A stretch of 18,049 nucleotides of DNA, from UHGV virus genome UHGV-0118719; one strand, given 5' to 3'. Source of the DNA: a virus. The notes under the pieces were generated by a model, which worked only from the letters and a program-made list of their open reading frames with translations, was not told the DNA's origin and did no database searches. Position numbers and translations under genes: made by a program. Positions 32 through 9,847 of the stretch are shown here, one piece after another. Numbering within the stretch: the stretch's first letter is position 1; each line of letters starts with the position of its first letter.

Positions 32-331
32 TTATAAAAAAGGTTGGTTTGGGAGGGATGGGGCAAACCTATAGCGCATCGCAAGATAACTCCTCAGAAC
101 CCTCCCCATGTTACGCAGGATCCAGTACCGGTTCTCGCTTTCGTTTGTCGTCTTATCGGCGAAGTCCGGCTGGTATCGCTCGATCCATGTATTTGCATCC
201 GCCTTACTGAAATGCCAGTTCCTCTCCTGCAGTTCAGCGATGAACTTGTCTGTATGCAGGCAGAGATAGCCCTTCGGGTTTTGCTGTATGGCCGCAATAA
301 AAGCAGCACGAATATCCGGTTGACGAGGCAT
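32..331 (-). CDS. small hypothetical protein (about 99 aa from the ATG at 329-331; the track ORF begins at a GTG at 349), divergent from the dinI-like gene
   Basis: Six-frame ORF 32..349; in-frame ATG at 329-331; shares the LexA-box intergenic region with the dinI-like gene; weak RBS; no family recognised by eye. Confidence 0.45.
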   Translation of the reverse strand: MPRQPDIRAAFIAAIQQNPKGYLCLHTDKFIAELQERNWHFSKADANTWIERYQPDFADKTTNESENRYWILRNMGRVLRSYLAMRYRFAPSLPNQPFL

Positions 332-352
332 GAACGCACTCTCACTCACTCA

Positions 353-431: not shown

Positions 432-698
432 ATGTTTGTTGAACTGGTTTATGACAAGCGAAATGTTGAGGGGCTCCAGGGGGCCAGAGAGATCATCCTG
501 GCTGAGCTAACCAAGCGTGTGCACCAGATTTTTCCTGATGCAGAAGTGAAGGTGAAGCCGATGCAGGCAAACGGCTTGAATAGCGATGCCAGCAAAAGCG
601 ATCGGGAAAAGCTGAACCGCATGCTGGAGGAAATGTTTGAAGAGTCAGATATGTGGCTGGTTTCTGAGTTCCCGACCGTTCGACAGGTTGGCCTTTGA
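432..698 (+). CDS. dinI: DinI-like protein (DNA-damage-inducible protein I family; prophage-type, MFVELVYDKRN... N-terminus)
   Basis: 88-aa ORF; AGAGGA RBS 5 nt before the ATG; sequence pattern matches remembered DinI and prophage DinI-like proteins (FPDAEVKVKP..., EEMFEESDMWLVSE); LexA box upstream. Confidence 0.85.
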   Translation: MFVELVYDKRNVEGLQGAREIILAELTKRVHQIFPDAEVKVKPMQANGLNSDASKSDREKLNRMLEEMFEESDMWLVSEFPTVRQVGL

Positions 699-754: not shown

Positions 755-793
755 CCGCCGCTCATTCTTGCATACGATGGGCGGCGGATTTTT
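755..793. terminator. rho-independent terminator after the dinI-like gene; also sits at the 3' end of the convergent tail-fibre gene
   Basis: 11-bp stem ccgccgctcat (755-765) / atgggcggcgg (777-787) with one G-U pair and an 11-nt loop, followed by ATTTTTC. Confidence 0.55.
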
Positions 794-1995
794 CAGCTTC
801 CAGGCCGCAACGCATCGAGCTTTTTCTTTAAATCTTCAACTTGCTGCATTAAAGCCAGAATCGCTTCATGATGTAGCGCTGCCGCAACGCCGTAAGTATC
901 TGGAGAGAGCACTCCTTCCACCACAGTTCCATCTGGGAGTTTACGATCACCCCCCTCAGTTACTGCTTGCGGGAAAACGTTCTTAACATCCTGCGCGATA
1001 AATCCTATCCCCCATTGTCCGGTATCTTTTCTCGTCCACGAGCAACCTTTTAGCATTTCCATCTTTTTGAGCGGGTCCTCAATTCTGGTCACCCCATCCT
1101 TCAGGCGGCCATCTGAATTCGGAACCCAAGCGCCAGGTGCTACAGCGTTGCCATTTAATTTAATAAAGCTCCAGTTGGTTCCTGAACTTGCGTTTGCTAC
1201 CTGAATATTCCCTGTTAAAGAACCATCCGCAGCCATTTGGGAGTAAAGGGCGCACACAGCAGCATCCGTTCCGTTGGCCCACCGTAGCAGGGAACGAATT
1301 AAACCGCCGACTGATCCTTCAGTTACCGTTGGTTGCGTATAACTCGTAATACTTCCATTAACTGCACCGCCAGTTTTCTGATCGATAGTATTTAATCTTG
1401 TATCGTTACCTGCAGCCACCGTTCCCGCTGTTGCGCCAATGTCTCTCGTGGCACTGTTTCCCAAACCGAGGCTTGTGCGAGCACCTGATGCGGTTGTTGA
1501 ACCGGTACCGCCCTGTCCAACAGATAGCGCTGTCGTGAGTCCGCTGAGCGAAGTAATATCGCTGTTTGCACCTTTTGCCGCCTTGCCTGAAAGTGATGTA
1601 GTAATGCTATTCCAGGCTGGGCCCGTCCATGTCGTTCCATCCGGCAGTGTTACTGTTACATTGCCGGTTCCAGAAAAAATGCTTTGCCAGTTCTGTTTGT
1701 CGTAATTCAGTCCTCGCAGCGCTTCAGCACTTTGCGCCACCAGCGCGGCAGTTACCATGTTCAGAGCCACACGGGGAACCGCTGACCAGGCAGCGCCGGC
1801 CTGAGTAGGGCCGGTAAAGTTGCTGACCAGCGTAAGCTGCGCATTACTCTCTACAGATTTTACGGGCAATGTATACGACACGCCGCCAACAGTAGAGACA
1901 ATAAAATCACCTGCAGCGAGTTCAGTTGCGAATGAGGTTCCGGAACCGCCAACAATAGCGGACCCGTTTGTCAGGGTGATGGTGCCTGCCGACAT
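793..1995 (-). CDS. tail fibre protein with C-terminal S74-type intramolecular chaperone (autoproteolytic) domain
   Basis: 400-aa ORF; AGGAG RBS (2002-2006, reverse complement) 6 nt before the ATG; N-terminus MSAGTITLTNGSAIVGGSGTSF typical of tail-fibre anchors; Gly/Ser/Thr-rich middle; the last ~107 aa begin SDGRLKDG..., resembling the SDxRLK start of endosialidase / T5 pb1 chaperone domains. Confidence 0.8.
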   Translation of the reverse strand: MSAGTITLTNGSAIVGGSGTSFATELAAGDFIVSTVGGVSYTLPVKSVESNAQLTLVSNFTGPTQAGAAWSAVPRVALNMVTAALVAQSAEALRGLNYDKQNWQSIFSGTGNVTVTLPDGTTWTGPAWNSITTSLSGKAAKGANSDITSLSGLTTALSVGQGGTGSTTASGARTSLGLGNSATRDIGATAGTVAAGNDTRLNTIDQKTGGAVNGSITSYTQPTVTEGSVGGLIRSLLRWANGTDAAVCALYSQMAADGSLTGNIQVANASSGTNWSFIKLNGNAVAPGAWVPNSDGRLKDGVTRIEDPLKKMEMLKGCSWTRKDTGQWGIGFIAQDVKNVFPQAVTEGGDRKLPDGTVVEGVLSPDTYGVAAALHHEAILALMQQVEDLKKKLDALRPGS

Positions 1996-2016: not shown

Positions 2017-2052
2017 AATAAAAAACCCGCCTCGGCGGGTTCTTGTTTTTTT
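2017..2052. terminator. bidirectional rho-independent terminator between the Cor-like lipoprotein gene and the tail-fibre gene
   Basis: A-run, 6-bp stem acccgc (2025-2030) / gcgggt (2035-2040) with loop ctcg, then TCTTGTTTTTTT; gives a T-tract on both strands. Confidence 0.65.
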
Positions 2053-2291
2053 CATTTTGTACAGGTCGAGCCGGTAAAGTTGTTTTTACTTACCCAGCGC
2101 CAGTTGAAAGGATATCCAGCTTTGTATTCAATCTGATTTGCTACTCGCCTCACACCATAGACCTGAACAGTCTGTTCTTGTCCACCGACAACTATTACGG
2201 CCTCACATACTGGATTCTGCTTCTCAAGGAGATTGGATGAGCAAGCAGAAAGAAGACTGCAAAAAAGAAACATGACTGATATTTTTTTCAT
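2052..2291 (-). CDS. small outer-membrane-type lipoprotein, Cor-like (candidate superinfection-exclusion lipoprotein)
   Basis: 79-aa ORF with ATG start; signal peptide MKKISVMFLFCSLLSAC with lipobox LSAC; AT-rich; occupies the position next to the tail-fibre gene where N15/phi80/HK022/T1-type phages carry cor. Family assignment is unverified. Confidence 0.65.
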   Translation of the reverse strand: MKKISVMFLFCSLLSACSSNLLEKQNPVCEAVIVVGGQEQTVQVYGVRRVANQIEYKAGYPFNWRWVSKNNFTGSTCTK

Positions 2292-2370: not shown

Positions 2371-2397
2371 TCAAAAAATCGATCGTTTTAAACGATC
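2371..2397 (-). terminator. GATC-containing dyad (gatcgtttTaaacgatc) followed by a T6 tract on the minus strand; weak terminator or operator
   Basis: 17-bp near-perfect palindrome at 2381-2397 directly after the stop of the 224-aa ORF, with an A-run at 2373-2378 on the plus strand. Confidence 0.35.
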
Positions 2398-2399
2398 AT

Positions 2400-3074
2400 T
2401 TAATCAAATGCAGCCGTATTGATAGCGGTCAAAGAAATTCCTGTGTTGGTTCCTCCACCTGGTGAGCCAGTTCCGGTAGATGTACCACCTGCGTTTATTC
2501 TCGTACTGCCACCATTAAACCTACAAGATGAATAGGCATTTATAGTGTAGATAGTTGGGGGCTGAGTGGAGTTATTAACGATAATCGTCTGACCAAGCTG
2601 AGCCGGAGCGACAGCCCACGACCCGGACAGTGTCTGGTCAATGTTAATCCCACCGCTTGCACCTGGACTCCCCACAGTTTGTAGATCAGAAAGCACCCTT
2701 GATTCGTTCGTCAGAACAAGCTTACCGGAGGCATCCCAGATAGCAAATCCCCACGCAGGAAGTGTTTGAGGAAATATTGAAAATACATATGCTGTAAGCG
2801 TAAAGCTCTGGTTATAGGGATTAACGCCACTAATATAGACATTTCCTCCGATGCGATATGACATGACTGGTGTCGGTTGTGCAGTATCAGTCGTTTTTAT
2901 GAAAACCATTACCGGATAATCGGCAGGCACCGAAAGATATTGTGCCACCTGTTGGGAGCTGCCATTAGCTGAGGAATTAAATGAGTATTTCCCATAGAGG
3001 CAGAAAGGCGTTGATTGCGGAGTGACGAAGGGATTCCCATTATCCATTAAAATCATTGCGCCAAAGTCGGACAC
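2400..3074 (-). CDS. hypothetical protein (224 aa), second of two coupled post-J ORFs; Gly/Ser/Thr-rich C-terminus
   Basis: ORF begins at a GTG (3072-3074) that overlaps the upstream TAG by 1 nt (TAGTG); GGAGAAGG RBS inside the end of the upstream ORF; shares a WDASG motif with the upstream ORF. Confidence 0.6.
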   Translation of the reverse strand: MSDFGAMILMDNGNPFVTPQSTPFCLYGKYSFNSSANGSSQQVAQYLSVPADYPVMVFIKTTDTAQPTPVMSYRIGGNVYISGVNPYNQSFTLTAYVFSIFPQTLPAWGFAIWDASGKLVLTNESRVLSDLQTVGSPGASGGINIDQTLSGSWAVAPAQLGQTIIVNNSTQPPTIYTINAYSSCRFNGGSTRINAGGTSTGTGSPGGGTNTGISLTAINTAAFD

Positions 3075-3376
3075 TATGCCTTCTCCATAAAAACGATCAG
3101 CTCACATTTCGAGGCCGGATAATTACCAAGCCCAGTGTCAGATGCGGACGTCACAGTTATTGAGTTACCTGATGCAACTATTCTTCGCCCTACGCTGTTA
3201 CCTCCTTCATCAAGAGAAACAACAAAACCAACTTTAAAACCTGTGGGCACAGTGAAACTCCAAGAACCTGAGTTCTGACCTGCTGCAAGTGGAATGCGGC
3301 CTACTACCGATACTGGTTTAATGCCATAGTTATTAGGCCTTCCGCTGGCATCCCATGTTTGTATTCCCCATGACAT
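3074..3376 (-). CDS. hypothetical protein (100 aa), first of two coupled post-J ORFs
   Basis: ATG at 3374-3376 overlaps the J stop by 1 nt (TGATG); AGGAG RBS 8 nt upstream, inside the end of J; WDASG motif. Confidence 0.6.
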   Translation of the reverse strand: MSWGIQTWDASGRPNNYGIKPVSVVGRIPLAAGQNSGSWSFTVPTGFKVGFVVSLDEGGNSVGRRIVASGNSITVTSASDTGLGNYPASKCELIVFMEKA

Positions 3377-6300
3377 CAGAATACTCCTGTCAGTTTTCCA
3401 ATCTGTACGCGCAGGACGCCGTTAGCATCCCTTATGCTGTCAGTAACATTCGTTGTCTTTCTTGCGCCCTGCCCGTCACTGCCATAGTTTTCCCAAGTGC
3501 CACCTTTATCCAGTTTCCATCCAGATTGCCCGGCAACGTAATTGTTGGACTGGATAAAGTTACCGATTTTGGCATTGGTGATCGTGCCATCCTGAATAAA
3601 CGCTGAGCTGATAAACACCTGACCGTTTACCACCGCGAACGGCGAATACTGGGTATCACCACTGCCGCTCATCAGCACGAACTGGTTAGCGTTGAAACCA
3701 ACCCGCGTGACTACCGGCTTCCCTGCCTCTGCAAGCACTGCAATAGACATCCCGGCGTTATAAATCACCCCGTTTATTCTCACGCCCGTTTTGAGGGTGT
3801 GGATTGCCGAAGCACCGGAGGCATCTACGACAGCTGTAAGCTTGTCTTCCAGGGAAGCGGTAACATCCTCAATCTGCGCCTGCACCTGCGTCGAAAGTTC
3901 GGCCATTGCATTATCAACTTCAGCAATCGTCGTTTTAACCACCAGAATATCGGCACGCACTTCTCCGTATTGTGCCCACTGGTGCTCAACAGTTCCATGG
4001 TTCGCCAGGGCGTTCTGCAGTATTCCCTCAATGTTGGTATCGATGTCACCAGTCAGGCGTTCTCCGTCTGCAGAGGTTAGGAAATCATCTGCGATATCGC
4101 CCAAATAATCATCGGCGTTATCGTTAGACATCCCCCTGATCCAGTCGGTATACCCGGACTCGTTACCCGTTCTGTCGACCAGCTGCGCGCGGTACCAGAA
4201 TTCCTGCCCTGCTTTAAGGCCGAGCTGGGTGTATTCCGCAGATGGATAAGGCACGTCTGAGAGCAAGAGTGGATCTGAAAAGTCACTGTTGGCAGTGTAC
4301 TGAATTTCCGTTTTTAGCGTATCGCCGGTGTTTGCCGGGAAACCCCAGTTAAGACGAATCCCCCAGTTAATGCCCGTGGCTGTGAATCCTACTGGCTTAG
4401 GCGGATTACCTACTTTGCCGGTCAGTGTCTTCTCTTCTGAATATCCCCATCCTGAGGAAATTTCAGCGGCATTAATTGCGCGCACGCGCACCAGGTAGCG
4501 CCCGGCATAAATCCCCGGGACGTCAAATGACGTGGTGGAGCTGCGAGGCATGTTCACCCAGTTTCCGTCGTTGCGGCGCCACTGCCCCTCATAGGCGATA
4601 GCGTTCTGCGCCTGGTCCCAGCTCACGCGCATCGTTTCGACGCTGATATTCTGCTGAACAACCGAAAACGAACTGATCGTGATGTTGGCTGGCGGGGACT
4701 GATTACCGGGCGGAATTACACTTATTGGCCGCTGGTCGATGATGGCGCCGGTATCGATACGGGCATACTTATCCGGATCGTGAAAAGCACCAGTAATCGA
4801 AAACGTGCCGTCGTTATTATCAGCGACGCTGATAACACGATATTGCTGTGCATAAAGCTCGTCGGATTCGACAATCCATACCGATTCGACTGCCGGTGTT
4901 TCGCTGTATGCCGTGGTCACGGTGACAGCCCGACCGTTTACGCTCTGTATCGTCCTGCTCTGCGATGCGCCAGACGGCAGGTTAACCATAAGACGGCTTC
5001 CGGCAACGGCTGCGGAATCACGATCAAGCGTGATAACGCGACCATTAACCGCGCTGATACGCCCTCCCATCACCTTTCCGGATAACAGATCATCGGCAAC
5101 CGCGATAATATAACCAGGCTGCGGAATGTTTCCGTCCAGCCCGACATCAAACGAAACAACGCGATCCTTGTTATTGGTGAGAATACCCCAGCGCCCCTTT
5201 CGGTTCGCCTCTGACTGCCTGGTGCAGCCGATGGCTGTCATTTCCAGCTGATTGAAGCCGTACCGCGCCACCAGCGCCTGCTCAAATACCGGCTCCATCG
5301 CGTCGGCATAAGCGTTACCCGGGTCTGACCATGAAACCAGCGCTGTGGTGTAGCGGCTTTTCGTGGTGCTGCTCGAATAGGTGAAGCGACCGCCAACAAC
5401 GTTAGCGCGCGTATAGCTGTAATCAACATCGCGCGGCATGTCAGCCAGGGCCACAATCTGATCCCCGCCCCAGTAGGTCATGCCACGGAAGATAGCGGCA
5501 AAATCACGCAGGACTGTGTAGGCGTCGTTCCGGTCCTGAATGTACACGTTGCAGGTATAGCGTGGTTCTGTACCGTTGCCCCCTTTGCCGTCTGGTACCA
5601 TCTGATCACAATACTGAGCAACCTGATAAAGCGTCCATTTATCAATATTCGCAGCGGTCAAACGGTGCCCAAGGCCGAACCGGTCAGAAACAACCAGGTC
5701 GTAAAAAATCCACGCAGGGTTATCCGTCCATGCCCACTTAAACGCACCGGTCCATGTACCGCTATAAGTGCGGGTTTCAGGGTCGTAGGTATCTGGAACG
5801 CGGATAACGCGGCCGCGCGGTTCGCATGAAATTTGAGGAATAGAGCCGTTGAACTGGCTTGAGTCGAATTCGACGTAGAGCAGCGCGGTGTTCGGGTAGC
5901 GCAGTTTGGCGTCAATCACCTCGGTGAAGCTCTGCAGCATCATCGTGTCGCCGATCTTCGCGCTGTTGGCGTCAGAGGTAATCTTACGCAGACGTATTGT
6001 CCATGTGCTGCCAGCCTGCGGTAAATCGATACGGTGGCTGCGCTCATAACCAGACGTCGTTTTGCCGGTCACGCTGGTATTGAGTACCGTCTGCCATGTG
6101 CCGCCGTCAGTCTGCAGGTCAATCGCATAATTGACCGAGTAACCCACCAGATCGCCGTCGTCTTCCTGTTTGAAAAGCGAGGGCCATTTAAGACGCAGGC
6201 GAACTGCTGAAAGCTGCGTATTGGTAAACGTGCGCGTCCAGGCTGTGGCACTTGATACCTCAGTTCCTACGCTGATCTCGTTTTCGGTACCGGGAATACC

Positions 6301-6561
6301 CTGAATATATTTTTGCGCCTGCGTTCCCGCGCGAAACTCCCACGTTACCCCGCTGAAGTTTTGGGAGCCGTCAGCATTCTCCAGCGCTGTTCCGTCCAGG
6401 TAGATATCTTTGCCGGTGAGCTGTCCAGCAAACTCCCCTTCCCCAAGCGCAACGAGGATTTTTGCCTTCGCTACAGATTGCAGATCATCAGGCTGTTCGG
6501 TAGGGGTTCGGGAACTTGAGCTGCCGCCCTTGCGGCCTTTTAACACTTTATCTGTAGCCAT
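3376..6561 (-). CDS. J: tail tip / central tail fibre protein J (host specificity protein)
   Basis: 1061-aa ORF in the lambda J position after I; conserved lambda-J-like blocks in the central region (e.g. YPNTAL, WTLYQVAQYCDQMVPDGKGG..TEPRYTCNVY); N- and C-terminal regions diverge from lambda. Confidence 0.9.
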   Translation of the reverse strand: MATDKVLKGRKGGSSSSRTPTEQPDDLQSVAKAKILVALGEGEFAGQLTGKDIYLDGTALENADGSQNFSGVTWEFRAGTQAQKYIQGIPGTENEISVGTEVSSATAWTRTFTNTQLSAVRLRLKWPSLFKQEDDGDLVGYSVNYAIDLQTDGGTWQTVLNTSVTGKTTSGYERSHRIDLPQAGSTWTIRLRKITSDANSAKIGDTMMLQSFTEVIDAKLRYPNTALLYVEFDSSQFNGSIPQISCEPRGRVIRVPDTYDPETRTYSGTWTGAFKWAWTDNPAWIFYDLVVSDRFGLGHRLTAANIDKWTLYQVAQYCDQMVPDGKGGNGTEPRYTCNVYIQDRNDAYTVLRDFAAIFRGMTYWGGDQIVALADMPRDVDYSYTRANVVGGRFTYSSSTTKSRYTTALVSWSDPGNAYADAMEPVFEQALVARYGFNQLEMTAIGCTRQSEANRKGRWGILTNNKDRVVSFDVGLDGNIPQPGYIIAVADDLLSGKVMGGRISAVNGRVITLDRDSAAVAGSRLMVNLPSGASQSRTIQSVNGRAVTVTTAYSETPAVESVWIVESDELYAQQYRVISVADNNDGTFSITGAFHDPDKYARIDTGAIIDQRPISVIPPGNQSPPANITISSFSVVQQNISVETMRVSWDQAQNAIAYEGQWRRNDGNWVNMPRSSTTSFDVPGIYAGRYLVRVRAINAAEISSGWGYSEEKTLTGKVGNPPKPVGFTATGINWGIRLNWGFPANTGDTLKTEIQYTANSDFSDPLLLSDVPYPSAEYTQLGLKAGQEFWYRAQLVDRTGNESGYTDWIRGMSNDNADDYLGDIADDFLTSADGERLTGDIDTNIEGILQNALANHGTVEHQWAQYGEVRADILVVKTTIAEVDNAMAELSTQVQAQIEDVTASLEDKLTAVVDASGASAIHTLKTGVRINGVIYNAGMSIAVLAEAGKPVVTRVGFNANQFVLMSGSGDTQYSPFAVVNGQVFISSAFIQDGTITNAKIGNFIQSNNYVAGQSGWKLDKGGTWENYGSDGQGARKTTNVTDSIRDANGVLRVQIGKLTGVF

Positions 6562-6571
6562 ATTGCGCCCA

Positions 6572-6595
6572 TAAAAAAGCCACCCAAAGGTGGCT
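6572..6595 (-). terminator. rho-independent terminator on the minus strand, ending about 10 nt upstream of the J start codon
   Basis: Plus-strand A6 then 7-bp stem agccacc (6578-6584) / ggtggct (6589-6595) with loop caaa; on the minus strand this is a hairpin followed by TTTTTTAT. Confidence 0.55.
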
Positions 6596-6726
6596 ACTGT
6601 CTGAATATCAGGATGTTACAAATCTAAATACCTGGTTATGTTGTGGATTCAGCCCGCCAGCGGTGGGACGCTGGTGAACTCATAACAGGTGGAATGGCTG
6701 ATTACCTCTGGAAAAAGGAGAAGTAA

Positions 6727-6987
6727 ATGGGTTCGATGTTAGAACTGGAAAAAGAAGTGGCAGAGCTTAAACAAAAGCTGCTTACGCATGAAATTGCAAC
6801 TGGCCTGATTCTATCGGACATTGTGAAATTACTGGACATTGCCCGGCCAGGCGCACTCGATGCTCTGACTAAAAACTATCAGGCAGGGCAAGCAAAAATC
6901 CCAGAATCAGCTGCACGTAATGATCCGCACACAATTGATGCGTTCACGCGCATCCTTAAAGTTTTAGAGGTGGCATCAAAGAAATAA
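6727..6987 (+). CDS. hypothetical small protein (86 aa) on the opposite strand to the tail operon; coiled-coil-like N-terminus
   Basis: AGGAG RBS (6716-6720) 6 nt before the ATG at 6727; AT-rich compared with flanking tail genes; 3' end overlaps the convergent minus-strand ORF by 32 bp. Confidence 0.5.
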   Translation: MGSMLELEKEVAELKQKLLTHEIATGLILSDIVKLLDIARPGALDALTKNYQAGQAKIPESAARNDPHTIDAFTRILKVLEVASKK

Positions 6988-7273
6988 TTAAATCGAGCTT
7001 TTCATTGAATATTTCTTCATGAGTTTTAGCGGCCTCATTCTGGGCCGCTGTTACCGTTCCACCGAAAACCCCTGCATCACCCTGCGAAATCTTTCCCTCC
7101 TTTACTCGCAAACTCCAGCCATTACCGGTGATGGTCGAATGAATAGCGCCACCTGGCCGTAGTGCGTTCTGAATGGCGGAATTGACGATTGCCGGGTTAT
7201 GCAGCTCTGCTATCTCCACCTGCAGGCTCGCGATGGTTGCCTCAAGCATGCTCATGCGCTCTTCTAAAGTCAT
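6956..7273 (-). CDS. hypothetical small protein (105 aa from the ATG at 7271-7273) between I and J
   Basis: AGGAG RBS 7 nt upstream of the ATG at 7273; the longer track ORF (to 7375) would overlap I and lacks an RBS; coiled-coil-like N-terminus. Confidence 0.5.
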   Translation of the reverse strand: MTLEERMSMLEATIASLQVEIAELHNPAIVNSAIQNALRPGGAIHSTITGNGWSLRVKEGKISQGDAGVFGGTVTAAQNEAAKTHEEIFNEKLDLIISLMPPLKL

Positions 7274-7310
7274 AGTTTTCTCCTGCCTATCAGCTAATAA
7301 GTTAATTAAT

Positions 7311-7901
7311 TTACTGTTGATCTTCGACATAAATTCCGGCAGAAATAATCGCTCCGCCGATTCGACGCTTACCATAAAGCAGAGGCACCGGGTACCCCTG
7401 TGCCGCGGTGTTTGTTACACCACCGAACGCGTATGAGGCGCGGTTATCTGAACTCTGTTTGCTGGCCAGCCCCGCTGGTTGAGGGGAAAGCATCTGAACA
7501 ACCCCGCCAATCATCATTGCGGCACCGAATTTGTATAAGAATGGTGATGCCGCAGCCCAGGGTGTGAAATTAAGCACCGCCCCAACGGCAACCAGAACTG
7601 CACCAAGTATTGTCTGGAGTAATCCGGCCTTTTTGCTCCCGATAATCACCGGGACAATCCTGACCACTTCACCAGTTACCGGAAAACCTAGGTCATCAAC
7701 TCCTATGTTTTTCTTTCCTTTAAAAATGGCAAAGGTTAGTCCGCGGCGCTTGCTGTTTACCATATAACTTTCAAACCCGGTGATTGTTTTTGCGAGTGCT
7801 ACACCTGCTTCAGAAACTTTACTGATAAGTCGCCAATGAGTTTTACCAAATATTTTACCGGGTTCGCCGCCGAGCTCAATTCGAGTCATTGCTTCAGACA
7901 T
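7311..7901 (-). CDS. I: tail assembly protein I
   Basis: 196-aa ORF; AAGAGG RBS 5 nt upstream; C-terminal half resembles lambda gpI (Gly/Ala-rich hydrophobic segment, then VLPVLYG-like block, here YPVPLLYGKRRIG). Confidence 0.85.
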   Translation of the reverse strand: MSEAMTRIELGGEPGKIFGKTHWRLISKVSEAGVALAKTITGFESYMVNSKRRGLTFAIFKGKKNIGVDDLGFPVTGEVVRIVPVIIGSKKAGLLQTILGAVLVAVGAVLNFTPWAAASPFLYKFGAAMMIGGVVQMLSPQPAGLASKQSSDNRASYAFGGVTNTAAQGYPVPLLYGKRRIGGAIISAGIYVEDQQ

Positions 7902-7959: not shown

Positions 7960-8373
7960 TCAAAATGCTGTAGGGTAGATACCAAAATCACCGTTGGTTC
8001 CGTAACCAACTCTAAACATCAAAACCCCAGTATCTGTCACCTTACCCGACTGTTCGCTCATGCCTCCGCCACACATACCTTTGGGCCAAGCGCTAAAGAT
8101 ATGATCTCCAATTTTGGGATAGACCGTTACCTTTTGAGCTGTATCTAAGTCTGCGACCTCCTTGCCATCAACATAAACTCGGGTCATGCAGGCGCTGCCC
8201 ATAAAACCAGAGTCTCGTTTGATTATTACCTTGCCAGTCCCTTCTTTTTTTACTAGCAGTGTATTGCTGATAACCTGTTTTGCAGGAACATCCTGTGCTT
8301 GTTCATTTGTCACCGGCTTAGTTGCACAACCGGCAACCATTAAGATGGAGGTAAAAACTAAAATTCTTTTCAT
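7960..8373 (-). CDS. lipoprotein of unknown function (137 aa), accessory gene between K and I
   Basis: ATG at 8371-8373 preceded by AAAGGGGA; signal peptide MKRILVFTSILMVAGC with lipobox VAGC; the longer track ORF start at 8493 was rejected. Confidence 0.65.
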   Translation of the reverse strand: MKRILVFTSILMVAGCATKPVTNEQAQDVPAKQVISNTLLVKKEGTGKVIIKRDSGFMGSACMTRVYVDGKEVADLDTAQKVTVYPKIGDHIFSAWPKGMCGGGMSEQSGKVTDTGVLMFRVGYGTNGDFGIYPTAF

Positions 8374-8461
8374 ATCCCTATCCCCTTTGGTCAATTTTGC
8401 CAAAAGAGTAGCAGGGATCGAGCGGTAGCAAAACCGAATGTTATCTTGGTTCACGCGCCCT

Positions 8462-8971
8462 TTAAATACCGGGGAGATACATCTGTACTTCATCAGCTAC
8501 ACGCTCCCGTGCTGTGTGTAGAAGCCGCTTGCGGCCACCAACACCCCACTTGGCCATCTGGCTGGCGCACTGGCTGATCGCTTTGGTTTCGGTGTTAATC
8601 ACATGGTCGATTTTATTCAAGCGAGACATGGCATCGAACCCGCGACGCATTAGCATTTGAAATGTCTCATAGACTTTGATTTCAAAAAGCGGATTGAGCC
8701 AGGCTGCATAGCGTATAGCGATAAGTTCAAGCCCCCAGGAGCCCTGAAATGGTCCCCCCTTAATTGTCATAACCGATGCGATTTTCTTCGCATCGCTCAA
8801 GGCTTGAACAAATCGCCTTACTTGCTTGGTTTTGAGAAACTCACCTGGTCGCTGTGATTCAGTGGCTTTGCCTTCAGCCACCGCTGCGGCGTGGAGATCA
8901 TTAAGATTATAACGTCCTTCGTTATCGACACGAACTGATACGCCGTTTACAGATACGGTTGGATATTGCAT
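8462..8971 (-). CDS. KilA-N domain protein (169 aa)
   Basis: N-terminal ~110 aa fit the KilA-N/APSES-type pattern (V..VR.D.EG...L.DL......, GG.FQGSWG.ELIAIRYAAWLNP.FEIKVYE); ATG at 8969-8971 with AAGG RBS; inserted where lambda has no gene. Confidence 0.65.
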   Translation of the reverse strand: MQYPTVSVNGVSVRVDNEGRYNLNDLHAAAVAEGKATESQRPGEFLKTKQVRRFVQALSDAKKIASVMTIKGGPFQGSWGLELIAIRYAAWLNPLFEIKVYETFQMLMRRGFDAMSRLNKIDHVINTETKAISQCASQMAKWGVGGRKRLLHTARERVADEVQMYLPGI

Positions 8972-9136: not shown

Positions 9137-9847
9137 CTATAGAAGCGTTTTATATCTGACGATCTTCATCGTCCTTTCCTGCCAGTAGCCACCATACGGC
9201 ACGCGCTGGCTCAGATGTCCGTACAGGTGGTGCAGCAGCATATTTCCCTCCAGCAGAATTCCCGCGTGGTTCCACTTATCAGCCTGGACCTGCATGATCA
9301 CCATATCGCCGGGTTTCGGTGGCCCGTCGAATTCCCGGAAACCGCACTCATACCAGCAATCCTGATAGAAGTTGTCCGGATATTCGTTTTCCCACCAGGG
9401 ATAATCAACCCGGTAATCGTGGAGTTCGATACCATGCGTTTGCCGAAAATAGCTCATTACCAGCCCCCAGCAGTCGAAGTGTCCAAGCACAAACGGACGC
9501 TCCAGCAGCGGCAGTTCTCCGCGCGGCTGGATGGTGCGTAAATCCCCCTCCGGCCAGCTCACAATATGCCAGGGTAAAAGCGTTGCGTCGCATTGCGCTT
9601 TATCCAGTTCGCTCGGTTGCGTTGTGGCGTCAGGGTGACTGTGAACGATGGCGATCACCGTACCCCAGTCCTCAGCAGCGGCATAGCCTTCTGGCGACAG
9701 GTGAAAATGTTCTGTCGGCTCGGTAGCGAGGTTACTACATGGAAAATATTTCTCTACCCGGCTCTTTTGCGCCACCACGCCGCAACACTCACGAGGATAT
9801 TCAGCTGCAGCATGCGCCATAATCGCATCGATGGTTTTCTGACGCAT
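9137..9847 (-). CDS. K: tail assembly protein K (N-terminal MPN/JAMM-like, C-terminal NlpC/P60-like)
   Basis: 236-aa ORF that matches my recollection of lambda gpK over essentially its whole length (MRQ.TIDAIMAHAAAEYPRE.CGVV..., HSHPD motif, HFDCWGLV). Confidence 0.95.
   Translation of the reverse strand: MRQKTIDAIMAHAAAEYPRECCGVVAQKSRVEKYFPCSNLATEPTEHFHLSPEGYAAAEDWGTVIAIVHSHPDATTQPSELDKAQCDATLLPWHIVSWPEGDLRTIQPRGELPLLERPFVLGHFDCWGLVMSYFRQTHGIELHDYRVDYPWWENEYPDNFYQDCWYECGFREFDGPPKPGDMVIMQVQADKWNHAGILLEGNMLLHHLYGHLSQRVPYGGYWQERTMKIVRYKTLL

What the first reader, a model, noticed from the sequence alone, without database searches (positions are those of the whole stretch)
2400..3376. Two translationally coupled unknown ORFs immediately downstream of J that share a WDASG motif
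A 100-aa ORF and a 224-aa ORF follow J with 1-nt stop/start overlaps (TGATG and TAGTG), each with a Shine-Dalgarno sequence embedded in the preceding gene. They therefore look like genuine late-operon genes made in fixed ratio with J. Both contain W-D-A-S-G in a similar hydrophobic context (GIQTWDASGRP and GFAIWDASGKL), suggesting a shared fold or paralogy, and the larger one ends in a Gly/Ser/Thr-rich tail. Lambda carries lom/stf/tfa here, so these are a different, unrecognised post-J accessory pair, possibly tail-tip or receptor-recognition components.
Basis: partly seen in the sequence, partly recalled or inferred. Interest (0 to 1): 0.5.

Follow-up and report, generated by a model that had tools for sequence, protein, structure and literature searches.

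The report
Tail-tip receptor-binding gene pair after J
The two small genes after the phage tail-tip gene J are real and belong to the gene pair already known from phi80, T1, N15 and HK022, which most likely caps the tail tip and binds the bacterial FhuA receptor, so the finding is genuine but largely ordinary.

Summary
On the minus strand, a J-like gene (3376-6561) is followed by a 100-aa ORF (3074-3376) and a 224-aa ORF (2400-3074). The junctions are TGATG and TAGTG, each with an upstream Shine-Dalgarno site. WDASG occurs once in each ORF and nowhere else in the window.

The pair is not unrecognised. It is the phi80 gp22/gp23 pair (PHROG 557 and 425). It sits after J in T1, N15, HK022, Dhillonvirus and Klebsiella T1-like phages, usually next to the FhuA-blocking lipoprotein Cor, which is present here at 2052-2291. 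Published work already ties this cassette to FhuA use and proposes the larger protein as a receptor-binding cap.

The WDASG motif is a conserved beta-hairpin. A copy also lies 19 residues before J's C-terminus (SIRDANG), which suggests a docking junction. The 100-aa protein is a likely paralogue of the large protein's C-terminal half and a probable adaptor. FhuA binding is inferred, not shown.

The parts
3376..6561 (-). J-like central tail fibre / tip attachment protein (1061 aa). It lacks a lambda-type C-terminal receptor-binding domain.
   Evidence: Pfam FNIII-A_GpJ 1.4e-50, Phage_Tail_Tip 1.3e-45 at residues 904-1040, Phage-tail_3. PHROG 31 'central tail fiber J'. The protein ends 21 residues after the Phage_Tail_Tip match. 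The last ~45 residues align with J of phi80, T1, grams and Sushi but diverge from J of Rtp, an LptD-type phage.
3418..3435 (-). J residues 1043-1048, IRDANG within SIRDANGVLRVQIG. This is a third copy of the hairpin motif, 19 residues before J's C-terminus.
   Evidence: Regex [TIVL][WRFYK]DA[SN]G hits exactly three times in all six-frame ORF segments of the window: here, in the small protein and in the large protein. The mean in shuffles is 0.006, but the pattern was defined post hoc. The motif is conserved in J of T1 (SVRDASGRLRV), grams, Sushi and phi80, and in remote relatives.
3384..3388 (-). Shine-Dalgarno AGGAG for the 100-aa ORF, inside J
   Evidence: Read from the sequence; 7 nt before the ATG.
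3374..3378 (-). TGATG: the J stop overlaps the start of the 100-aa ORF by 1 nt
3074..3376 (-). 100-aa protein, orthologue of phi80/N15 gp22 (PHROG 557). Small beta-sandwich with a conserved N-terminal hairpin; probable tail-tip adaptor.
3341..3355 (-). WDASG, residues 8-12 of the 100-aa protein (turn of the N-terminal hairpin)
3079..3086 (-). Shine-Dalgarno GGAGAAGG for the 224-aa ORF, inside the 100-aa ORF
   Evidence: Read from the sequence.
3072..3076 (-). TAGTG: the stop of the 100-aa ORF overlaps the GTG start of the 224-aa ORF by 1 nt
   Evidence: The same 1-nt overlap occurs in phi80, T1, L006 and L007.
2400..3074 (-). 224-aa protein, orthologue of phi80/N15 gp23 (PHROG 425). Two-domain all-beta protein; predicted FhuA-type receptor-binding cap of the central tail fibre.
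3024..3065 (-). N-terminal hairpin of the 224-aa protein (residues 4-17, FGAMILMDNGNPFV), a degenerate copy of the motif
   Evidence: G5, G13, F16, T18 and P19 are invariant in A1. AF2 strands 7-9 and 15-17 with pLDDT 48-59.
2724..2738 (-). WDASG, residues 113-117 of the 224-aa protein (turn of the inter-domain hairpin; strands 111-113 and 119-122)
   Evidence: It lies in the most conserved stretch of the family (residues 92-160, mean 0.81).
2380..2398 (-). Terminator-like hairpin plus T-run, 2 nt after the stop of the 224-aa ORF. It separates the tail operon from cor.
   Evidence: Consensus scan. Sequence TGATCGTTTAAAACGATCG ATTTTTT. Weak stem with 3 G-C pairs; function not shown.
2052..2291 (-). 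Cor superinfection-exclusion lipoprotein (79 aa, lipobox LLSAC). Marker of FhuA-using phages.
   Evidence: NCBIfam NF047972 lamb_exclu_cor, equivalog, 1e-38. PHROG 1119. Hydrophobic N-terminus.
2021..2044 (.). G+C-rich bidirectional terminator-like hairpin after cor

Best explanation
The two ORFs are the FhuA-type host-recognition cassette of a phi80/HK022/N15-like prophage.

J forms the trimeric central tail fibre but stops short of a lambda-style receptor-binding domain. The 224-aa protein is a separate receptor-binding protein. It is a two-domain beta-sandwich. Its conserved 'base' (the N-terminal hairpin, the WDASG hairpin and the C-terminal strand) docks on the J tip. Its variable loops contact the outer-membrane transporter FhuA, which commits the phage to irreversible adsorption and DNA ejection.

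The 100-aa protein is a likely paralogue of the C-terminal half of the large protein and carries the same hairpin at its N-terminus. It most likely sits at the J/receptor-binding-protein junction as an adaptor or assembly partner.

Overlapping stop/start codons make the three proteins from one late transcript. A terminator-like hairpin then separates them from cor. The Cor lipoprotein blocks FhuA in the lysogen.

Shown here:
- gene structure
- orthology
- synteny
- absence of export signals
- fold match to a solved receptor-binding protein
- motif conservation, including the copy in J

Inferred:
- virion location
- FhuA binding
- the role of the small protein
For: 1. Orthology and synteny.
- Full-length PHROG 557 and 425 matches.
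- DNA 72-81% identical to phi80, HK022, mEp213 and HK225.
- The large protein is found in 350 phage records.
- The order J, ~100 aa, ~220 aa was read in phi80, T1, grams and Sushi; the N15 match also overlies gp22 and gp23.
- Two remote metagenomic relatives have the same order after a J-like ORF that is cut at the contig end.

2. FhuA link.
- Cor equivalog next door.
- The literature reports that the pair plus cor occurs in FhuA-dependent T1, HK022, N15, ES18 and phi80, and in 10 BASEL Drexlerviridae/Dhillonvirus phages, all FhuA users (PMC13164509).

3. Fold.
- Weak sequence links to its family, DUF6453, fall in the same region.

4. J lacks its own receptor-binding domain, and its last ~45 residues co-vary with locus type.

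5. Conservation pattern of the large protein.
- Hairpins, core and C-terminus are 0.77-0.81 conserved. Residues 27-91, 161-186 and 198-210 are about 0.48 and rich in indels.
- This mirrors the LptD RBPs, where conserved residues map to the hairpin-rich base and the variable loops bind the receptor (PMC13035648).
- Against Klebsiella phage Sushi the large protein is 33% identical but the small one 53%.

6. Published AlphaFold-Multimer models for the Dhillonvirus orthologues favour one large protein capping the J trimer and binding FhuA (PMC12309495).

7. No signal peptide or TM segment in either protein. Cor is on the opposite strand in T1 and grams and absent from the equivalent position in Sushi.
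Against: - I found no experiment showing either protein in virions or bound to FhuA. The only wet evidence met is a tentative SDS-PAGE band in a distant podophage (PMC12309495).
- The T1 cryo-EM tail-tip structure did not resolve the distal end of J (PMC11945409).
- The fold match is to a model, at 9% identity and rmsd 5.2 A.
- Sequence links to DUF6453 are below significance (hhalign probability 16%; Pfam E 0.0038, below cut-off, for one distant member only).
- One recent paper assumes the two proteins act in superinfection exclusion (PMC13164509).
- The role of the small protein rests on analogy and motif sharing.
- Relatives in Stx phages are linked to BamA rather than FhuA (PMC12309495). 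The family does not dictate the receptor on its own; here the FhuA call rests on Cor and on close orthologues.
Confidence: 0.7

Rival explanations
1. Both proteins are accessory factors of Cor-mediated superinfection exclusion. They would be membrane or outer-membrane proteins that act on FhuA in the infected or lysogenic cell rather than virion parts.
For: [quoted passage not shown] They are constantly associated with cor in FhuA-using phages. This reading was proposed in PMC13164509.
Against: Neither has a signal peptide, lipobox or TM segment: maximum 19-residue hydropathy is about 1.0, against 1.8 for Cor. Both are translationally coupled to J in the late tail operon and are separated from cor by a terminator-like hairpin. 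Cor is on the opposite strand in T1 and grams and missing from that position in Sushi, while the pair stays. The fold matches a virion receptor-binding protein. Published membrane-affinity estimates are low (PMC12309495).
Confidence: 0.06
2. One or both proteins, most plausibly the 100-aa one, are assembly chaperones for the J tip or for the receptor-binding protein. They would be needed during morphogenesis but absent from the finished particle, as with tail fibre assembly proteins.
For: Position and coupling at the end of the tail operon. Small size. Strong conservation of the 100-aa protein (A2 mean 78%). No direct virion evidence. PMC12309495 itself mentions 'structural or chaperone-like roles'.
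Against: The small protein shares the hairpin motif and probably the fold with the large protein and with the J terminus. That fits a structural partner better than a chaperone. The large protein's fold is that of a bona fide receptor-binding protein. A diffuse ~13 kDa band seen in virions of a distant relative is only suggestive.
Confidence: 0.15
3. The 100-aa protein, as a homotrimer continuing the J fibre, is the actual receptor-binding domain (a detached version of lambda J's C-terminal domain). The 224-aa protein would be an accessory.
For: PMC12309495 reports structural similarity of the small proteins to the lambda J C-terminal domain, and a modelled trimer on the J tip for two of three phages.
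Confidence: 0.07

Closest known systems
phi80 gp22 (100 aa) / gp23 (224 aa). The same pair occurs in N15 (gp22/gp23), HK022, mEp213, HK225, Fraca, T1 (101 aa + 229 aa), Dhillonvirus and Klebsiella Webervirus. PHROG 557 and PHROG 425.
   Same: Same lengths, same order after J and the same 1-nt overlap between the two genes. Cor is adjacent in the E. coli phages read here (not in Klebsiella phage Sushi). Identity of the large protein is 51-94% to the E. coli phages and 33% to Sushi. J has the same C-terminal tip.
   Different: Nothing of substance; this is an orthologue. The window is not from a complete E. coli genome in the collection (at most 76% DNA identity). The closest proteins are from Salmonella and Enterobacter prophages.
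LptD-binding receptor-binding proteins of small siphophages: Oekolampad RBP (PDB 9RPT chain C) and Rtp44; Pfam DUF6453 (PF20051)
   Different: Different receptor (LptDE versus, by prediction, FhuA). About 311 aa in one chain with three hairpin motifs and no small companion gene; here 224 aa with two hairpins plus a 100-aa protein with one. No significant sequence similarity. In Rtp it is encoded on the opposite strand from J.
T5 pb5 (FhuA-binding receptor-binding protein) with the Llp lipoprotein
   Same: Same logic: a separate monomeric receptor-binding protein attached non-covalently to the tip of a trimeric central fibre binds FhuA, and a small lipoprotein blocks FhuA from the periplasm (PMC9586334, as cited).
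Lambda J C-terminal receptor-binding domain (LamB)
   Same: Same job at the same place on the particle. J upstream of the tip is homologous.
   Different: In lambda the domain is part of J and is present in three copies. Here J ends early and the function is carried by separate gene products.

Membership tests
FhuA-type post-J cassette (phi80 gp22/gp23 + cor; PHROG 557/425) | A small (~100 aa) and a large (~205-240 aa) ORF immediately downstream of a J homologue, in that order | tested here: met
FhuA-type post-J cassette (phi80 gp22/gp23 + cor; PHROG 557/425) | Full-length sequence membership of both proteins | tested here: met
   PHROG 557 at 3.2e-34 (1-99 of 100) and PHROG 425 at 9.5e-78 (1-224 of 224). 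66% identity to N15 gp23 and 94% to Fraca.
FhuA-type post-J cassette (phi80 gp22/gp23 + cor; PHROG 557/425) | Adjacent Cor lipoprotein | tested here: met
   NCBIfam lamb_exclu_cor equivalog, 1e-38, 131 bits against a cut-off of 31
FhuA-type post-J cassette (phi80 gp22/gp23 + cor; PHROG 557/425) | J with the matching C-terminal tip sequence | tested here: met
   The last ~45 residues align with phi80, T1, grams and Sushi and differ from Rtp.
FhuA-type post-J cassette (phi80 gp22/gp23 + cor; PHROG 557/425) | The phage depends on FhuA for infection | not testable with these tools
   Inferred from Cor and from the orthologues' phenotypes in the literature.
Virion receptor-binding protein (functional class) | Present in the virion and binds the receptor directly | not testable with these tools
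   Only in-silico models and a tentative gel band exist in the literature read here.
DUF6453 / LptD-type receptor-binding proteins (PF20051) | Match to the Pfam model above its gathering score | tested here: not met
   No DUF6453 hit for any of the 44 family members at E up to 10. Among ten distant family members scanned, one (P0414) gave E 0.0038, 17 bits against a cut-off of 25.
DUF6453 / LptD-type receptor-binding proteins (PF20051) | Same three-dimensional fold as the solved member (9RPT chain C) | tested here: met
DUF6453 / LptD-type receptor-binding proteins (PF20051) | Single chain of ~310-320 aa with three conserved hairpin motifs | tested here: not met
   224 aa with two motifs. The third motif is on the separate 100-aa protein.
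Outer-membrane / membrane-associated protein (the PHROG names) | Signal peptide, lipobox or transmembrane segment | tested here: not met
   Maximum 19-residue Kyte-Doolittle value is 0.93 and 1.02. No basic/hydrophobic N-terminus. Cor scores 1.82. No dedicated predictor was available.
Detached lambda-J-type C-terminal domain (claim for the small protein in PMC12309495) | Structural similarity to lambda J's C-terminal domain | tested here: inconclusive

The most novel reading that the evidence does not exclude
The WDASG motif marks a beta-hairpin that is shared by four places. These are the extreme C-terminus of J (SIRDANGVLRV, three copies in the trimer), the N-terminus of the 100-aa protein, and the N-terminus and inter-domain linker of the 224-aa protein.

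The three hairpins supplied by one small plus one large protein would dock on the three J hairpins. This would turn a three-fold fibre into an asymmetric, single-copy receptor-binding cap.

On this reading the FhuA-type pair is a split version of the single-chain LptD-type proteins (DUF6453). Those carry three such hairpins in one ~311-aa chain (100 + 224 = 324 aa) and have no small companion gene. FhuA-type and LptD-type receptor-binding proteins, so far called unrelated, would then be one superfamily with a common docking device.
Probability: 0.3. Interest if true: 0.55.

Novelty: already known. Interest (0 to 1): 0.3.

Why it matters
The pair decides which outer-membrane protein a large group of temperate and T1-like phages use. 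It therefore matters for predicting host range from genomes and for re-targeting phages.

For this window the practical result is a prediction: the prophage should infect through FhuA and should exclude FhuA-dependent phages through Cor.

Two modest additions go beyond the papers read here:
- A fold-level link between the FhuA-type cap and the solved LptD-type cap.
- The same hairpin motif at J's own C-terminus, in the small protein and in the large protein. This gives a concrete, testable picture of how a single-copy receptor-binding protein could attach to a trimeric fibre.

The current database names ('outer membrane protein', 'membrane associated protein') are unsupported and misleading.

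Tried and rejected
- Pfam and NCBIfam gave no family for either protein.
- A sequence search of all PDB chains gave nothing for the large protein and only chance-level hits for the small one.
- Whole-profile hhalign between the two families aligned only the 12-column motif. Splitting into domains was needed to see the relation between the small protein and the large C-terminal half.
- I tested whether the large protein is a tandem duplication, and whether each of its halves matches one third of Rtp44. All those domain pairs scored no better than reversed-sequence controls. The idea of three homologous units is therefore not supported by sequence beyond the hairpins.
- Foldseek of the small-protein model against viral models returned other ~95-130-aa uncharacterised phage proteins, including the Littlefixvirus one, but no clear hit to large-protein relatives.
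- I looked for natural fusions of the small and large proteins among 136 family clusters in 1.84 billion proteins and found none. The one long hit, P0314, is a J fragment joined to the C-terminal 174 residues of a large-protein homologue.
- I searched for virion proteomics of these proteins and found none in the held library. Wietzorrek et al. 2006 is not held.
- Membrane or outer-membrane localisation was rejected.
- A Lom, Stf or Tfa identity was rejected, because the PHROG, Pfam and NCBIfam scans gave no such match.

Full report
**1. The observation**

The genes lie on the minus strand. A J-like ORF (1061 aa, 3376..6561) is followed by a 100-aa ORF (3074..3376, ATG) and a 224-aa ORF (2400..3074, GTG).

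- On the coding strand the first junction reads GACAGGAGTATTCTGATGTCA and the second TATGGAGAAGGCATAGTGTCC. The TGATG and TAGTG one-base overlaps and the embedded Shine-Dalgarno sites (AGGAG at 3384-3388; GGAGAAGG at 3079-3086) are as described.
- WDASG is at residues 8-12 and 113-117. These are the only two occurrences in the six-frame translation of the window.
- The similarity extends to WGIQTWDASG versus WGFAIWDASG.
- The C-terminal 40 residues of the large protein are rich in G, T, S and N. AlphaFold2 nevertheless predicts them as ordered strands with high confidence.

**2. What the genes are**

- Both proteins match phage protein families over their full length: PHROG 557 (3.2e-34) and PHROG 425 (9.5e-78). 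Pfam and NCBIfam have no family for either.
- The DNA is 72-81% identical to the J-distal region of phi80, HK022, mEp213, mEp043, HK225 and Fraca. In phi80 the genes are annotated gp22 (100 aa) and gp23 (224 aa).
- A translated search finds the large protein in 350 phage records. These include lambdoid phages (N15 gp23, 66%), Dhillonvirus (57%), T1 (51%), other Drexlerviridae, Klebsiella Webervirus (33%) and a Pseudomonas phage.
- In phi80, T1, grams and Sushi the order is J, then a ~101-aa ORF, then a ~212-229-aa ORF.
- Two remote metagenomic relatives of the large protein also sit behind a ~92-aa ORF with a one-base overlap, after a J-like ORF that is cut at the contig end.
- The family is small and uniform: 136 clusters at 50% identity among 1.84 billion proteins, nearly all 204-241 aa.

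**3. Surroundings**

- Directly downstream lies a 79-aa lipoprotein that is an NCBIfam equivalog of Cor (1e-38). Cor is the FhuA-blocking exclusion protein of phi80, N15 and T1.
- A terminator-like hairpin with a T-run begins 2 nt after the large ORF's stop (2398..2380). A stronger bidirectional hairpin follows cor. This fits phi80's annotation of cor as a moron with its own promoter.
- A side tail fibre gene with a Peptidase_S74 chaperone domain follows (793-1995).
- Upstream are tape measure, M, L, K and I homologues.
- The window is not from a complete E. coli genome in the collection (at most 76% identity). The nearest proteins come from Salmonella and Enterobacter.

**4. What is already published**

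- A 2026 preprint confirms this on 255 phages. It calls the FhuA, BtuB, LptD and YncD proteins four unrelated families. It also notes that the C-terminal tip of GpJ co-varies with the locus (10.64898/2026.04.02.716166).
- Matusiak et al. modelled exactly this pair in Dhillonvirus JLBYU60 (FhuA), Stx phage 24B (BamA) and a Pseudomonas podophage. They found that J lacks a receptor-binding domain. AlphaFold-Multimer preferred one 'hand-like' large protein capping the J trimer and binding the receptor (PMC12309495). Their only wet evidence is a tentative gel band.
- The KanT1 paper found the pair plus cor in 10 BASEL Drexlerviridae/Dhillonvirus phages, all FhuA users. It credits Wietzorrek et al. 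2006 with noting the cassette in T1, HK022, N15, ES18 and phi80. From the database names it guessed a role in exclusion, and it reported no Foldseek or HHpred hits (PMC13164509).
- The T1 cryo-EM structure did not resolve the distal tip (PMC11945409).
- The pair is therefore known and its role has been proposed. I found no experiment that proves it.

*(a) Fold.*
- With a 44-sequence alignment, AlphaFold2 gives a confident all-beta, two-domain model of the large protein (pLDDT 90.1, pTM 0.84).
- That protein is encoded at the same post-J locus and binds its receptor as an isolated monomer (PMC12685063).
- Its relatives are described as two lectin-like beta-sandwiches. [quoted passage not shown] The lectin 3WMP is their closest earlier match (PMC13035648). 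3WMP is also the second hit of the large-protein model and the first hit of the small-protein model.
- The Rtp44/Oekolampad family is Pfam DUF6453. Sequence links to the family studied here are weak but fall in the same region: hhalign E 1.7e-3, residues 55-128 against Rtp44 155-229, and a sub-threshold DUF6453 hit for a distant family member.
- I conclude that the two receptor-binding protein types share a fold and probably ancestry, but the protein here is not a DUF6453 member by the Pfam criterion.

*(b) No export signals.* Neither protein has a hydrophobic segment or a signal-like N-terminus, unlike Cor.

*(c) Conservation of the large protein.*
- It is conserved at the N-terminal hairpin (0.78), residues 92-160 including WDASG (0.81) and the C-terminus (0.77).
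- It is variable and indel-rich at residues 27-91, 161-186 and 198-210 (about 0.48).
- This is the pattern of a conserved attachment base with variable receptor loops.
- Against Klebsiella phage Sushi the large protein has diverged to 33% and the small one only to 53%.

*(d) J tip.* J here ends 21 residues after the Phage_Tail_Tip domain match. Its last ~45 residues align with J of the four phages that carry the pair and differ from J of Rtp.

**6. The motif**

- In the models, WDASG forms the turn of a beta-hairpin: strands 111-113 and 119-122 in the large protein.
- The N-terminus of the large protein carries a degenerate copy (FGAMILMDNGNPFV).
- The N-terminal ~20 residues of both proteins are conserved but low in confidence in the monomer models (pLDDT 47-59). 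This is what one expects of segments that order on binding a partner.
- J itself has a third exact-type copy 19 residues from its end (SIRDANGVLRVQIG). It is conserved in T1 (SVRDASGRLRV), grams, Sushi and phi80, and in the remote relatives (GIEIFDGNN, GVKVFDERG).
- The pattern [TIVL][WRFYK]DA[SN]G hits exactly these three sites in all six-frame ORFs of the window. The shuffle mean is 0.006, but the pattern was written after seeing the sites, so the figure is illustrative.
- Rtp44 has three motifs of the same type at about residues 4-21, 114-130 and 208-228. These coincide with the three segments of the Oekolampad protein that lacked cryo-EM density and had to be modelled (1-25, 113-142, 206-234; PMC12685063). 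Those segments form the end away from the receptor.
- This suggests, but does not show, that the hairpins are the device that docks the cap on J. It also suggests that the FhuA-type system divides three hairpins between two polypeptides (1 + 2), where the LptD type has three in one chain and no small gene.

**7. Paralogy**

- Whole-family profile comparison aligned only the 12 motif columns.
- Domain-wise comparison shows the small protein aligning with the C-terminal half of the large one over 81 columns (probability 75%, E 2.6e-5).
- All other domain pairs, including those with Rtp44 thirds, scored no better than reversed controls.

**8. Mechanism and rivals**

- Best explanation (0.70): the large protein is the FhuA-type receptor-binding cap of the J fibre and the small protein is an adaptor at the junction. 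The details and the shown-versus-inferred split are in the best-explanation section.
- Exclusion accessory (0.06) is contradicted by the lack of export signals, the operon structure and the variable presence and orientation of cor.
- Assembly chaperone, especially for the small protein (0.15), cannot be excluded without virion data.
- Small-protein trimer as the true receptor-binding domain (0.07) is disfavoured by its conservation, by the published models and by the lack of a lambda J hit.

**9. Verdict**

They are orthologues of a long-deposited, repeatedly discussed cassette, so novelty is low. The interpretation 'receptor-recognition components' is right in direction, while 'unrecognised' is wrong. 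The added value is the fold link to a solved receptor-binding protein, the rejection of the membrane-protein names, and the hairpin shared with J's terminus as a testable docking model.

Noticed in passing
window 3418-3435 (-), J residues 1043-1048: J's own C-terminus carries the same hairpin motif (SIRDANGVLRV) as the two downstream proteins. It is conserved in J of T1, grams, Sushi and phi80, and in two remote relatives.
   Followed up: partly
window 7960-8493 (-) and 8462-8971 (-): Two apparent morons lie inside the tail operon, between the K-like (9137-9847) and I-like (7311-7901) genes. One is a lipoprotein (PHROG 890) and one a transcriptional-regulator-like protein (PHROG 129). The two overlap by 32 nt.
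   Followed up: no
window 6956-7375 (-): A 139-aa ORF of unknown function (PHROG 22477, 1e-92) lies between the I-like gene and J and overlaps the 3' end of the I-like gene by 65 nt. It is followed by a ~395-nt stretch before J (6562-6955) that holds only short ORFs, including an 86-aa ORF on the plus strand (6727-6987).
   Followed up: no
window 793-1995 (-): A 400-aa side tail fibre with a C-terminal Peptidase_S74 intramolecular chaperone domain (2.2e-12) lies downstream of cor, after a bidirectional terminator-like hairpin at 2021-2044.
   Followed up: no
window 432-698 (+) and 32-349 (-): A DinI-like protein (PHROG 189) lies on the plus strand, and a conserved unknown (PHROG 3893) on the minus strand, at the left end of the window.
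   Followed up: no
protein P0314 (337 aa): A database protein joins a fragment of J (its fibronectin-like and coiled region) directly to the C-terminal 174 residues of a large-protein homologue. It looks like a deletion or recombination scar across the J, small and large genes.
   Followed up: partly
hits H36 (KX534336, phage Gluttony) and H124 (LR597646, Gluttony_ev152): Two Dhillonvirus records with the same base name carry different post-J loci: the FhuA-type large protein in one and a DUF6453 (LptD-type) protein in the other. This would be an example of module exchange if the genomes are otherwise alike.
   Followed up: no
hits H142-H154, ~76-kb Escherichia podophages: Distant DUF6453 relatives (22-25% identity to Rtp44 over ~85-90% of its length) occur in ~76-kb Escherichia podophage records, so the fold is not confined to siphophages.
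   Followed up: no
locus L005 (Klebsiella phage Sushi), 4187-5160: The small/large pair is present after J, but no cor follows it; a tail fibre gene follows on the opposite strand. The pair therefore does not need Cor nearby.
   Followed up: partly
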